From contig OY820914.1 in assembly GCA_963682005.1 (NCBI GenBank), positions 4,644,979 through 4,708,978 of the forward strand: a stretch of DNA of 64,000 nt. Direction: 5' to 3'. Of the stretch, positions 37,933 through 40,900 are shown piece by piece; the stretch's first letter is position 1; every line of letters begins with the position of its first letter. Under the pieces are notes generated by a model, which saw nothing but the letters and a program-made list of their open reading frames with translations, was not told the DNA's origin and did no database searches. The position numbers and the translations under genes are program-made. The DNA is from Bacteroidales bacterium (lineage in GTDB: Bacteria; Bacteroidota; Bacteroidia; Bacteroidales; FEN-979).

Positions 37933-40900
37933 ATGATCAAAATATTTAGTTTAATAATACCGAACCTCCCTCAATTTCGCTATTTCGCTACTTCGCTATT
38001 TCGCAATTTCGCTATTTCGCTACTTCGCTATTTCGCTATTTCGCTGCTTTTTCTTACTCCTATCCTCACTCCCGCGCAACAAGCCAATGATTGGGAAAAC
38101 CCCGGCCTGACCGGCATCAACAACGAGCCACCGCATGTCACTTATTGCCCGTTCGCAGATGAAGGATCGGCATTAAAAAATGTCTGGGACACCTCCCCTT
38201 TTTATAAAACGCTGAATGGCTTGTGGAAATTCAACTGGTCTCCCGACCCTGAAATCCGGCCGGCGGATTTTTACAAAGATGATTACGATGTAAGCATATG
38301 GAAAGAGATCCAGGTCCCATCAACCATGGAAGTACAGGGTTATGGCTACCCGATTTATGTGAACTGGAAATATGAGTTCGACAACCTGATGAAGCCTGAT
38401 CCGCCATATGTTCCTCATGATTACAATCCTGTGGGTTCTTACCGGACTTCCTTTACTGTTCCGCAAGGATGGCAGGGGAATCAGGTCTTTCTTCATTTTG
38501 GTGCCGTCAAATCATTCATGTATGTTTACCTCAATGGTCAGCGGATCGGGATGGGAAAAGATGCCAAAACCCCGGTTGAATTCAACATCACCCCATACCT
38601 CAGGAAAGGAGCCAACACGCTTGGGGTGGAAGTTTTCCGCTGGTCCGACGGTACTTACCTTGAATGCCAGGATATGTGGCGCATGAGCGGGATCAACCGC
38701 GATGTGTACCTCTATTCCACACCCAAAGTCATGATCCGCGATTTTTTTGTCAGCGGGGATCTTTTCTCGGGTTATCAGCACGGGATCTTAAGGGTGACAG
38801 CTCTTTTAAGAAACCTCGGGCAAACTGAAAACGATCTTCATACCGTTTCAGTCTCCCTTTTTGATTCAAAAACTGAAGGAAAACCGGTCTATTCCGAATC
38901 AATTAGTTTCAAGGCGCGGATGAACCTGGAAGACACGATCAGTTTCGAAAAGTATATCCCGAACCCGAAAAAATGGAGTGCTGAGATCCCGGACCTCTAT
39001 TACCTCGTCATTACATTGAAGAATAGTTCCGGAAAAGTCATTGAATCAACTAGCACCCGGGTTGGGTTCAGAAGTACGGAGGTCAGGAACGGACAATTCC
39101 TTGTGAACGGTGTTCCCGTAAGGCTTAAAGGGGTTAACCGCCACGAGCATGACCCGGTGAAAGGGCATGTCATATCAAAAGAGCTGATGCTGAAAGATAT
39201 CAGGCTGATGAAGGAGGCCAACATCAACACGGTTAGGACCTGCCATTACCCGGATGATCCGTACTGGTACGATCTGTGCGATGAATACGGCCTTTATGTG
39301 ATCGATGAAGCCAATATCGAATCGCATGGCATGGGCTATGATCCGGATAAAACGCTCGGAAACAATCCGGATTGGAGAAAAGCACATTTGGACCGCACCA
39401 TCCGTATGGTTGAACGCGACAAGAACCATCCTTGCGTAGTGGTCTGGTCGCTCGGAAATGAGGCAGGCAACGGCTGCAATTTCGTCGATACCTATAACTG
39501 GATAAAGAACAGGGATCATACAAGGCCGGTTCAGTACGAACGGGCTGAAATGGCTGCCAATACCGACATATTCTGCCCGATGTACTGGGGCATTGAAGAC
39601 CTCAACTATTATGGCTTTACAAAACAGTACCGACCACTCATCATGTGCGAATATGCACATTCCATGGGAAACAGCACGGGAAATCTGCAGGATTACTGGA
39701 ACACCATTGAAAAGTATCCGCAGCTCCAGGGCGGCTGCATCTGGGACTGGGTCGACCAGGGATTGCTTAAGAAGAACGACAAGGGAAAAGATATTTATGC
39801 TTTTGGAGGTGATTATGGTTTTGAGGACACCCCAAGCGATGGGAATTTCTGCTGCAACGGCATTGTTTCTCCCGACAGGAAACCCCATCCGGGCTATTAT
39901 GAGGTAAAAAAGGTTTACCAGTATGTTAAATTCAGTCCTGTTGATCTTTCCGGGCTTACCCTGGAAATTATCAACAACTATGATTTCTTTGATCTCTCAG
40001 GGACTGAACTATTATGGGAGATCACGATAAATGGCATTCAGGTTTCTTCAGGCGTCATTCCTCCTTTTAAACTTGATCCAAAAGATAAAAGGACCATTAA
40101 AATCCCGGCTTCCATACCGGAACTGATCCCCGGGAACGCCAGTTTTCTGAACCTTTATCTGAAGACTACCGGGACGCAGGGGTTGCTGGAGAAAGGGCAT
40201 GTCCTGGCTTCCGCCCAGTTCACCCTCGGAGAAAAGCCGGAACCGAACCTTGTTACCACATCAGATATGGCATCCCTGACGATGGCTGAGACGCCGGAAG
40301 ATATTCAGATCACGGGAAAAGACTTCACCATTGTTTTTACAAAAGGGATGGGGACTTTTTCTTCCTATAAAAGAGAAGGCACAGAGTACGTCGCTTATGG
40401 TCCGGTTCCGAATTTCAGAAGGGCATTGACGGACAATGATATCGGCAATGGGCTTTACAAGCGGTCGAAGGTATGGTTTGACATGAGCGAACAGCGTTCA
40501 GCAACCTATTTTAAAGTTAACCAGGTCGGTGAAAAAGAGATCCGGATCAGGGTGATCTATGAATGGGGCGGCGGAAACGCCAAGGAAAGCGTGATATACA
40601 GGATCCTCGGCAGCGGTGATATCCTGATGAATGTCCAGTTAATGATCGGCAAAGAAGGTTTACCGGATCTGCCAAGGTTCGGCCTGAATATGCAGGTGCA
40701 GCCTGCCTTTGACAGGATCAACTGGTTCGGCCGGGGTCCCTGGGAAAATTACTGGGATCGCAACACGGCCGCATTTGTAGGCTTGTACCAGGGTTCGGTA
40801 AAGGAGGAAAACCTGCCCTATGTCAGGCCGCAGGAGTATGGAAACAGGACGGATGTCCGTTGGCTGACGCTGACATCTGCCGATGGCAAAGGGTTGCTGA

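What the first reader, a model, noticed from the sequence alone, without database searches (positions are those of the whole stretch)
37933..38082. An octamer tandem array is translated as the N-terminus of the GH2 beta-galactosidase, giving a possible frame-dependent on/off switch or repeat-derived leader peptide
The only in-frame ATG upstream of the conserved NDWENPG start of the LacZ fold is at 37933. I saw no in-frame GTG or TTG between it and that motif. Translation therefore has to pass through nine CTATTTCG-family units (37972-38043). These are 72 bp, or 24 codons, encoding [24 protein letters not shown], followed by [12 protein letters not shown].

The unit is 8 bp, so only unit counts divisible by 3 keep the enzyme in frame. 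Gain or loss of one or two units would abolish expression. The same unit forms non-coding arrays elsewhere (49441). The hydrophobic, Arg-punctuated product is not a classical signal peptide, although most Bacteroidota GH2 enzymes have one.
Basis: partly seen in the sequence, partly recalled or inferred. Interest (0 to 1): 0.65.

Follow-up and report, generated by a model that had tools for sequence, protein, structure and literature searches.

The report
Octamer repeat translated into signal peptide
A run of nine 8-base repeats sits inside the start of a beta-galactosidase gene and is almost certainly translated as an unusually long export signal; related bacteria carry the same repeat, always in frame, and there is no evidence yet that it works as an on/off switch.

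Summary
Nine 8-bp units (37972-38043) lie between the only canonical in-frame start (ATG 37933) and the conserved NDWENPG start of an intact LacZ-type GH2 enzyme. One or two units more or fewer truncate the ORF to 41-61 aa.

- **Translated leader: supported.** Orthologues at 55-69% identity from other MAGs carry the same ATTTCRCY array at the same place. Unit numbers differ, each lineage has its own higher-order blocks, and every one is in frame from a conserved start to an ...A|Q signal-peptidase site.
- **It is a signal peptide.** After its last Arg the window's leader reads [16 protein letters not shown]|QQ, a normal Sec/SPI h+c region that obeys the Bacteroidetes Q-rule.
- **Origin.** The array is one of 26 or more 7-8-bp arrays in the window (0 in shuffles). 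It is the only one that has to be translated.
- **On/off switch: possible but untested.** The closest precedent is Neisseria opa CTCTT. Only one strain is available, and no orthologue is out of frame.
- **Unexplained.** Several orthologues also carry the reverse-complement array at the gene's 3' end.

The parts
37154..37903 (+). Upstream CutC-family gene. It ends 29 nt before the GH2 start, and its last codons and stop lie in the AATTATG array.
   Evidence: Pfam CutC, E = 1.4e-73. The same gene order is found in L082, L084 and L006.
37883..37917 (+). AATTATG heptamer array (about 5 units) spanning the CutC stop and the CutC-GH2 spacer.
   Evidence: TRF. The same array occurs at the same place in L082 and L084.
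37933..37935 (+). ATG, the only canonical in-frame start codon for the GH2 enzyme.
   Evidence: Codon listing and upstream stop at 37924. Gene calling on the second assembly picked the same start. The upstream sequence is A/T-rich and unstructured.
37933..38076 (+). 48-codon leader, read as an extended Sec/SPI signal peptide with predicted cleavage between Ala48 (38074-38076) and Gln49 (38077-38079).
   Evidence: Feature analysis. Orthologue leaders all end ...A|Q or ...S|Q a few residues before DWENP. Solved LacZ structures align from residue 2-5 of the predicted mature protein.
37972..38043 (+). Nine 8-bp units (CTATTTCG family; ATTTCGCT in TRF's register, 37974-45), equal to 24 codons encoding [24 protein letters not shown]. 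On this strand the unit is stop-free in all three frames.
   Evidence: open+ = 3, open- = 0.
37972..38035 (+). Two identical 32-bp (4-unit) blocks, the trace of the most recent expansion, in a step that is not a multiple of 3.
   Evidence: TRF period 32, 97%; unit listing.
38026..38076 (+). The functional core of the signal peptide: Arg32 (38026-28), the h-region [13 protein letters not shown] (38029-38067, half of it array-encoded) and the c-region TPA (38068-38076).
   Evidence: a 16-aa h+c region with mean Kyte-Doolittle 1.67, against 16 aa and 1.72 (L005) or 2.45 (L007) in plain orthologues.
38077..41199 (+). Mature LacZ-type GH2 beta-galactosidase ([10 protein letters not shown]...) plus stop codon, with intact catalytic motifs.
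   Evidence: Pfam GH2_N, GH2, GH2_C, LacZ_4 and Bgal_small_N. PDB 6sd0 at E = 2e-266 and E. coli LacZ at 4e-192. GNEAG at 508 and CEYAHSMGN at 572.
49435..49466 (+). Non-coding copy of the same octamer family (3-4 units), 6 nt beyond the stop of minus-strand secA. It is antisense relative to that gene.

Best explanation
The array is a short tandem repeat of the kind that fills this genome's intergenic regions, and it lies inside the signal-peptide-coding part of a live, exported LacZ-type beta-galactosidase gene.

**How it works.** Translation starts at ATG 37933. It reads 13 unique codons and then the 24 array codons. Because 8 is not a multiple of 3, an 8-bp unit reads as one 8-residue repeat (LFRYFAIS) in every frame.
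- The last Arg (R32) with the following [13 protein letters not shown] and TPA|QQ forms an ordinary Sec/signal-peptidase-I signal with Gln at +1.
- The first 31 residues are a long, positively charged, partly hydrophobic n-region extension.
- The leader is removed on export, so its odd sequence costs the enzyme nothing.

**Why it persists.** The array is tolerated because on this strand it has no stop codon in any frame and encodes hydrophobic residues. It grows and shrinks by slippage in 8-, 16- or 32-bp steps. Purifying selection retains only alleles whose total length keeps the enzyme in frame.

**Shown versus inferred.**
- Shown: the array, the frame, the absence of any other start, conservation of an in-frame array in orthologues, and the intact enzyme.
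- Inferred: the start-site usage, export, the cleavage site, and the neutral or tolerated status of the array.
For: - **No alternative canonical start.**. By contrast, the PFK and thioredoxin-like genes have a canonical ATG right after their arrays.
- **Orthologues carry the same array in frame.** L001, L002, L003, L004, L006, L009, L082 and L088 (55-69% identical, several synteny contexts) carry ATTTCRCY arrays of 3-9 units at the same place. All are in frame from a conserved ATG to ...A|Q.
- **Independent expansion.** Higher-order blocks are lineage-specific: 32 bp in the window and 16 bp in L002. The arrays therefore changed independently and the frame was restored each time.
- **The array is dispensable.** Clade members L084, L086, L087, L005, L014 and L085 have plain 20-41 aa leaders.
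- **Normal signal-peptide core.** The h+c region after the last charged residue is normal in size and hydrophobicity. Gln at +1 fits the Bacteroidetes Q-rule (PMC5837995, PMC10653852).
- **The leader lies outside the fold.** The LacZ fold begins at the predicted mature N-terminus.
- **Coding avoidance.** Arrays cover about 9% of non-coding but about 0.2% of coding bases, and 72 of the 120 coding bases are this array. That fits a genome-wide mutational process excluded from coding DNA except where it is tolerated.
- **No RNA element.** The region folds worse than shuffles (z = +1.96) and has no Rfam hit.
Against: - No signal-peptide predictor was available; the SPI assignment rests on feature inspection and orthologue comparison.
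- A 48-aa leader with three Arg residues and several hydrophobic stretches is atypical and could impair or alter targeting.
- The same unit family has persisted at this gene's termini across lineages with 31-45% protein divergence and changed neighbours. That is longer than expected for a purely neutral microsatellite and hints at a function, or at a self-renewing seed.
- The last expansion, by 32 bp, breaks the frame on its own. The history therefore includes out-of-frame intermediates or multi-step events, which is also what a switch would produce.
- The test linking leader arrays to each genome's background array density was not significant.
Confidence: 0.65

Rival explanations
1. Opa-type contingency locus. 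Slipped-strand mispairing changes the unit number at a useful rate, so the population holds ON cells (unit count a multiple of 3) and OFF cells (truncated 41-69 aa product). The cell thereby hedges expression of an exported beta-galactosidase.
For: - A non-triplet SSR lies between the start codon and the mature enzyme, and frame dependence was confirmed by simulation.
- The precedent is exact: opa CTCTT repeats lie in the signal-peptide region, with 6, 9 or 12 repeats in frame (bioRxiv 10.1101/2020.09.16.300947). That paper also documents a phase-variable glycosidase, NanH3.
- Two perfect 32-bp blocks show a recent frame-breaking step and provide 32 nt of perfect homology for further plus or minus 4-unit slippage.
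- The gene is dispensable in nature: a co-assembled haplotype has it split by a mobile element.
- The genome is evidently prone to slippage at 7-8-bp repeats.
Against: - No length variant has been observed. The two assemblies are identical and are the same strain.
- All orthologues with arrays (nine or more loci) are in frame, and none is OFF.
- The units are imperfect (90% here, 75-91% in orthologues), with at most two identical units adjacent. Classical contingency tracts are near-perfect.
- The gene class, a housekeeping-type glycan-degrading enzyme apparently in an operon with a melibiase-family gene and cutC, is not a typical contingency target.
Confidence: 0.18
2. The array is primarily a nucleic-acid element that happens to be translated. 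It could be a protein- or RNA-binding site array, or one half of a bipartite inverted repeat that ancestrally bracketed the gene (5' sense array, 3' antisense array) for mRNA end-pairing, stability or recombination.
For: - Across 49 orthologue loci the family occurs at the GH2 5' end only in sense orientation (7 loci), at the 3' end only antisense (4 loci), and rarely elsewhere.
- It stays with the gene when the neighbours change.
- L002 has a 21-nt perfect inverted match between its 5' and 3' arrays.
- In the window, tsf is also flanked by inverted heptamer arrays, and another inverted pair forms a hairpin.
- Intergenic heptamer arrays next to start codons have been proposed as regulator-binding sites in other phyla (PMC4679880).
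Against: - The window's own gene has no 3' partner, and its synteny group (L082, L084, L006) lacks one too.
- There is no consistent 5'/3' covariation: L009's unit types disagree and the duplex-energy matrix has no diagonal dominance.
- Several clade members lack the array altogether.
- Sense orientation at the 5' end is forced anyway, because the antisense orientation has stops in every frame.
- The RNA is unstructured and has no Rfam match.
Confidence: 0.1
3. Translation actually begins downstream of the array at a non-canonical codon (in-frame CTG 38044, ATT 38014 or 38038, ATC 38062). The array would then be 5' UTR, as at other genes in the window, and ATG 37933 would be fortuitous.
For: - Every other array in the window is untranslated, and arrays commonly abut start codons.
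- The array is stop-free in all frames, so an open frame through it is not itself evidence of translation.
Against: - Only 11 codons separate the array from the cleavage site. That is too short for a signal peptide, with no charged n-region.
- Orthologues keep a conserved ATG with a conserved upstream motif immediately before their arrays, always in frame. If frame were random the chance would be 1/3 per independent lineage.
- All plain orthologues have ordinary signal peptides, so the enzyme is expected to be exported.
Confidence: 0.05

Closest known systems
Neisseria opa genes: CTCTT pentamer 'coding repeat' in the signal-peptide-coding region
   Same: A non-triplet tandem repeat lies between the start codon and the mature protein. 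It is translated as the hydrophobic part of the leader. Only repeat numbers that are multiples of three (6, 9, 12) keep the gene in frame (bioRxiv 10.1101/2020.09.16.300947, discussion).
   Different: The unit here is 8 bp and imperfect (three unit variants). The host is an environmental Bacteroidales-like genome. The product is a periplasmic-type glycosidase, not a surface adhesin. No length polymorphism or OFF allele has been seen. The array persists, in frame, across divergent orthologues.
Long simple sequence repeats (5-11 nt, mostly heptamers) that are abundant in a scattered set of prokaryotic genomes (Mrazek et al. 2007, as summarised in PMC4679880; cyanobacterial STRR and Beggiatoaceae TAACTGA arrays)
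   Same: There are dozens of 7-8-bp arrays, almost all intergenic, often directly next to start or stop codons. Unit families recur at many loci, and array-rich genomes are found only in certain lineages.
   Different: Those arrays are described as intergenic and avoided in coding DNA unless the unit is a multiple of 3. Here an 8-bp array is embedded in, and conserved within, a coding leader.
Gardnerella nanH3 sialidase: poly-C tract immediately after the signal-peptide region
   Same: A secreted glycoside hydrolase whose reading frame depends on a slippage-prone tract at the leader (bioRxiv 10.1101/2020.09.16.300947).
   Different: That tract is a homopolymer, and within-culture length variation was demonstrated. 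Here the repeat is an octamer array inside the leader and variation is untested.
Extended signal peptide regions (ESPR) of autotransporters and two-partner secretion proteins (recalled from memory, not checked here)
   Same: A leader of about 50 residues in which a normal n-h-c signal peptide is preceded by an N-terminal extension.
   Different: ESPR is a conserved sequence motif of Proteobacteria with a proposed role in targeting kinetics. The extension here is a simple-repeat translation with no homology to ESPR.

Membership tests
GH2 LacZ-type beta-galactosidase | Five-domain architecture (GH2 sugar-binding N domain, Ig-like domain, TIM barrel, LacZ domain 4, Bgal_small_N) | tested here: met
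   Pfam hits to all domains: GH2_C 3.5e-100, Bgal_small_N 3.4e-68, GH2_N 4.6e-38, LacZ_4 and GH2. End-to-end match to PDB 6sd0 (2e-266) and E. coli LacZ.
GH2 LacZ-type beta-galactosidase | Catalytic acid/base and nucleophile Glu motifs (E. coli E461 in NES/NEA; E537 in CEYAHAMGN) | tested here: met
   GNEAG at residue 508 and CEYAHSMGN at 572. The equivalence to E461 and E537 rests on knowledge of LacZ.
Sec / signal peptidase I signal peptide (Bacteroidetes Q-rule type) | Positively charged n-region followed by an uncharged hydrophobic h-region of about 7-15 residues | tested here: met
   K3, R16, R24 and R32, then [13 protein letters not shown] (13 aa). The mean KD of h+c is 1.67, comparable to plain orthologues.
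Sec / signal peptidase I signal peptide (Bacteroidetes Q-rule type) | Small residues at -3/-1 and Gln at +1 of the cleavage site | tested here: met
   T-P-A|Q-Q at 38068-38082. Orthologues have FA|Q, HA|Q, PA|Q or FS|Q at the aligned position. Rule taken from PMC5837995.
Sec / signal peptidase I signal peptide (Bacteroidetes Q-rule type) | Typical total length of about 18-30 residues and positive call by a trained predictor | tested here: not met
   On length, the leader is 48 residues against 20-30 in plain orthologues. The predictor half of this feature was not testable, because no SignalP-type tool was available. The leader is therefore filed as an extended variant, not a typical member.
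SSR contingency locus (opa-type translational phase variation) | Non-triplet tandem repeat inside the ORF, upstream of the functional domain, so that unit number sets the frame | tested here: met
SSR contingency locus (opa-type translational phase variation) | Near-perfect repeat tract (high slippage rate) | tested here: inconclusive
   90% identity at period 8, with at most two identical adjacent units, but two perfect 32-bp blocks. Orthologue arrays are 75-91%.
SSR contingency locus (opa-type translational phase variation) | Unit-number polymorphism with ON and OFF alleles within or between strains | not testable with these tools
   Only one strain is available: L081 has 0 mismatches over 7.7 kb and an identical array. 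No other same-species sequence was found. Across species, unit number varies but every allele is ON.
Long simple sequence repeat (5-11 nt) arrays of LSSR-rich genomes | Many arrays with 5-11-nt units, far above chance, concentrated in non-coding DNA | tested here: met
   26 arrays against 0 in 20 shuffles; 915 of 1035 array bases lie in about 9.8 kb of non-coding sequence. Catalogue.
Long simple sequence repeat (5-11 nt) arrays of LSSR-rich genomes | Non-triplet units excluded from coding sequence | tested here: not met
   This array lies in an ORF segment that has to be translated. It is the exception in the window.

The most novel reading that the evidence does not exclude
The octamer arrays are a conserved, gene-linked bipartite element. 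On this reading, a sense array doubling as signal-peptide codons at the 5' end and its reverse complement at the stop codon have bracketed this GH2 gene since before the divergence of several Bacteroidales genera. The pair would act at the nucleic-acid level, through mRNA 5'-3' pairing, a common binding protein, or recombination between the arms. The window's 5' array would be the surviving, dual-coding half of such an element, and could additionally toggle the gene by slippage.
Probability: 0.1. Interest if true: 0.75.

Novelty: new variant of a known kind. Interest (0 to 1): 0.45.

Why it matters
The case shows that a microsatellite-like octamer array can be absorbed into a working gene as signal-peptide sequence and then persist, in frame, across divergent lineages while its copy number keeps changing.

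- **For annotation.** In repeat-rich Bacteroidota genomes, ORF starts next to arrays need checking case by case. In this window two array-containing N-terminal extensions are artefacts and one is real.
- **For biology.** It is a testable candidate for slippage-based phase variation of a glycan-degrading enzyme in Bacteroidota, a phylum where the phase variation I know of runs mainly through invertible promoters (recalled from memory, not checked here). It is also a natural experiment on how much n-region extension a Sec signal peptide tolerates.

Tried and rejected
- **Strain-level variation.** I searched 5.8 billion proteins with the leader plus N-domain, GTDB genomes and JGI metagenomes. I also ran exact look-ups of the GH2, CutC and kinase proteins. 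Only the same strain turned up, with an identical array. One Logan contig starts inside the gene. The switch could therefore not be tested.
- **A widespread leader family?** A 40-aa FRYFAISL repeat query found only three short ORFs of 62-69 aa. Rejected.
- **An RNA element?** There is no Rfam hit, and the fold is weaker than shuffles. Rejected for the window.
- **A promoter inside the array?** There is no sigma-70-type promoter or terminator between cutC and GH2, and no TAnnTTTG box in 37000-38100. The unit resembles a conserved CTATTTTCG motif upstream of the orthologues' ATG, but I could not show that this is more than similarity.
- **5'/3' covariation in orthologues.** Only L002 fits, and the duplex matrix has no diagonal dominance. 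Not supported.
- **Inverted same-family array pairs as a general rule.** There are only a few cases. Not established.
- **Leader-array presence versus background array density.** Mann-Whitney p = 0.10 and 0.33, with flanks too short. Inconclusive.
- **Other translated arrays in the window.** The PFK and thioredoxin-like N-terminal extensions are artefacts of longest-ORF calling.
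Full report
**1. What is in the sequence**

Window 37972-38043 holds nine 8-bp units: CAATTTCG CTATTTCG CTACTTCG CTATTTCG, the same four again, then CTATTTCG. TRF reports 37974-38045 with period 8, 9.0 copies and 90% matches, and also period 32 x 2.3 at 97%. 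A three-unit pattern with up to 3 mismatches occurs 9 times in the window against 0 in 100 shuffles.

The array lies in ORF 37933-41199 (+, 1088 aa). The in-frame stop upstream is at 37924. ATG 37933 is the only ATG/GTG/TTG in frame before NDWENPG at 38086. The array is exactly 24 codons.

Simulated alleles with 3, 6, 9 or 12 units keep the full ORF. All other counts stop after 41-69 aa. The same unit forms a non-coding array at 49435-49466, just beyond the stop of minus-strand secA.

**2. The gene is live and the leader lies outside the fold**

The protein has all five LacZ domains and both catalytic Glu motifs. It aligns end-to-end with solved beta-galactosidases (6sd0 at 2e-266; E. coli LacZ at 4e-192), starting at residues 2-5 of the sequence that begins [10 protein letters not shown]. 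The 48 residues before that have no counterpart in the fold.

**3. Genome context**

The window holds 26 arrays of period 6-9 at TRF score 40 or more, and about 33 at score 30. There were none in 20 dinucleotide-preserving shuffles.
- About 9% of non-coding bases are array, against about 0.2% of coding bases. Of the 120 coding array bases, 72 are this array.
- Arrays often touch stop or start codons within 0-25 nt.
- Two other ORFs appear to run through arrays, but both have a canonical start just after the array. PFK has ATG 26756, MPKLNKIGVLTSGGD, where its Pfam domain begins. The thioredoxin-like protein starts MKDNSCKIFF...FS|Q.

The GH2 leader is thus the only array in the window that has to be translated. 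Genomes rich in 5-11-nt repeats, mostly heptamers, are a described and sporadically distributed phenomenon (PMC4679880, summarising Mrazek et al. 2007). Among GH2-bearing relatives, array-rich flanks occur only in the window's clade.

**4. Orthologues decide the question of translation**

The nearest genomes are 55-69% identical in the first 400 mature residues. They are all uncultured Bacteroidales or Prolixibacteraceae-like MAGs.
- **Distant orthologues** have plain leaders of 21-30 aa ending ...A|Q a few residues before DWENP.
- **The window's clade** has longer leaders containing FRHFAISL-type repeats. At the DNA level these are ATTTCRCY arrays: L002 about 8 units, L003 5-6, L001 4-5, L009 4, L082 4-7, L006 3, L088 about 6 variant units, L004 degenerate.
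- **In L001-L003** the array follows directly on a conserved ATG AAA AAT (MKN), preceded by a conserved upstream motif.
- **Every one of these genes is in frame** from that ATG through the array to the cleavage site.
- **The higher-order structure is lineage-specific** (32-bp blocks here, 16-bp blocks in L002). The arrays have therefore kept changing independently, in steps that break the frame, and only in-frame outcomes are seen.

On a rough NJ tree, array-bearing and plain leaders are interspersed within one clade, so the array is dispensable and dynamic. L084, which has the same CutC-GH2 synteny, has a plain 21-aa leader, MKYWTLSTISLFLFPLLLAGQ, with only about two units. This suggests the array grows out of the h-region codons or shrinks back to them. 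L006 additionally reads through a different octamer array, CACCACTG x 4.5.

**5. The leader is an extended signal peptide**

After the last charged residue (R32) the window has [16 protein letters not shown]|QQ. That is 16 residues with mean Kyte-Doolittle 1.67, against 16 residues at 1.72 (L005) and 2.45 (L007) in plain orthologues. Gln at +1 is the Bacteroidetes Q-rule for SPI substrates (PMC5837995, PMC10653852), and it holds in essentially all the orthologues.

In orthologues the array's Arg codons have often become His or Cys (CGC to CAC or TGC), which lengthens the uncharged stretch. This fits selection for an h-region, although those are also common mutations.

The unit is stop-free in all three frames on the sense strand and has stops in every frame on the other strand. 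Because 8 is not a multiple of 3, it encodes the same 8-residue repeat in any frame. No predictor could be run, and the 48-residue length is atypical.

**6. The switch hypothesis**

The logic is that of Neisseria opa, where CTCTT repeats lie in the signal-peptide region and 6, 9 or 12 repeats are in frame (bioRxiv 10.1101/2020.09.16.300947). Points in favour:
- the frame dependence;
- the two perfect 32-bp blocks, which record a recent frame-breaking step and offer perfect homology for further plus or minus 4-unit slippage;
- the evident dispensability of the gene, since a co-assembled haplotype (L081, L163) has it split at window 39685 by an element encoding an integrase and an AEP-type primase.

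Points against or missing:
- the only second assembly is the same strain (0 mismatches over 7.7 kb) with an identical array;
- no other strain could be found;
- no orthologue is out of frame;
- the units are imperfect.

I put the switch at about 0.18.

**7. Other readings**

A downstream non-canonical start is unlikely. Only 11 codons would be left before the cleavage site, and it would not explain the conserved in-frame ATG in orthologues.

For the window, an RNA element is not supported: there is no Rfam hit, the fold is weaker than shuffles (z = +1.96), and there is no sigma-70 promoter or terminator between cutC and GH2.

One pattern remains unexplained. In L001, L002, L009 and L089, and weakly in L003, the 3' end of the GH2 gene carries the reverse complement of the same octamer, sometimes supplying the stop codon.
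- Across 49 loci the family is sense-only at the 5' end, antisense-only at the 3' end and rare elsewhere.
- It stays with the gene although the neighbours differ.
- L002 has a 21-nt perfect inverted match, but there is no consistent covariation.
- The window and its synteny group lack the 3' array.

I give a nucleic-acid-level function about 0.1.

**8. Verdict**

This is a real and statistically unambiguous feature: a genome-wide octamer or heptamer repeat process has been absorbed into the signal-peptide-coding region of a live GH2 gene and is translated as an extended Sec/SPI leader. It is conserved in position, variable in length, and always in frame among relatives.

It works like the opa coding repeat in its frame logic, but membership in the class of phase-variable loci is unproven. 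It is a new variant of known kinds (coding SSR in a leader; LSSR-rich genome), of moderate interest.

Noticed in passing
window 1-64000 (e.g. 260-322, 8441-8487, 15805-16077, 25230-25777, 26787-26925, 31956-32098, 37060-37153, 47744-47887, 48549-48653, 49399-49466, 54255-54293, 56384-56487, 57418-57440): The window holds 26-33 tandem arrays of 7-8-bp units, against 0 in shuffles, covering about 9% of non-coding DNA and often abutting stop or start codons. Unit families recur at distant loci: CCTCTGA at 16014 and 47838, with the near-reverse-complement TCGGAGG at 25590; TCGTAAT at 37125 and TTCGTAA at 54255. They also come as 7-/8-mer sister units (TAATGAG/TAATGAGA, ACCAGGC/ACCAGGTC).
   Followed up: partly
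L001 4596-4619, L002 9078-9101, L009 8180-8211, L089 6108-6131 (L003 about 9112-9123, weak): In several orthologues the 3' end of the GH2 gene carries the reverse complement of the leader octamer (RGYGAAAT arrays, sometimes providing the stop codon), so the gene is bracketed by inverted arrays. L002 has a 21-nt perfect inverted match, but there is no consistent covariation. The window's gene lacks this 3' array.
   Followed up: partly
window 39685; L081 7754-13247; L163 1-520: In a second contig set from ENA assembly ERZ21878447 (same strain, 0 mismatches over 7.7 kb) the GH2 gene is interrupted at window position 39685. The inserted element is more than 5 kb and encodes a tyrosine integrase, an AEP-TOTE primase-like protein and small ORFs.
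   Followed up: partly
window 26787-26859 and 26894-26924: Two adjacent arrays of complementary units (AGTGAAAA.../ACTTTTC) form a 31-nt, 81-87% complementary hairpin. It lies between the stop of ORF 26924-28066 (-) and the 5' region of the PFK gene, and may act as a repeat-built terminator or RNA stem.
   Followed up: no
window 56456-56474 and 57422-57440: The EF-Ts gene (56578-57414, minus strand) is flanked by inverted copies of one heptamer family (TTAGAAA / AATTTCT; 19 nt, 84% complementary). This is a second case of a gene bracketed by inverted arrays.
   Followed up: no
L006 5834-5869: In this orthologue the GH2 leader also reads through a different octamer array (CACCACTG x 4.5, encoding SPLHHCTTAPLH) directly after its only in-frame ATG, giving a 57-residue leader up to the predicted A|Q site.
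   Followed up: partly
window 37883-37917; L082 about 2810-2838; L084 about 2895-2912: The AATTATG array at the CutC stop codon is conserved in position in three lineages whose GH2 proteins are only 66-68% identical. It encodes the last CutC residues (...NYELGV*, ...NYQL*, ...MNYE*).
   Followed up: partly
window 25434-25556: A 22-bp unit (GTTGACGATATCTTCCCAAATA) is repeated 5.6 times at 96% identity inside a 750-bp intergenic region that also holds five heptamer arrays. Its function is unknown.
   Followed up: no
window 25776-26909 (-) and 52847-54274 (-): The longest-ORF calls for PFK and a thioredoxin-like protein run through stop-free arrays and add spurious N-terminal extensions. The real starts (ATG 26756; the second ATG, at codon 8) follow the arrays directly. 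This is an annotation hazard in this genome.
   Followed up: yes
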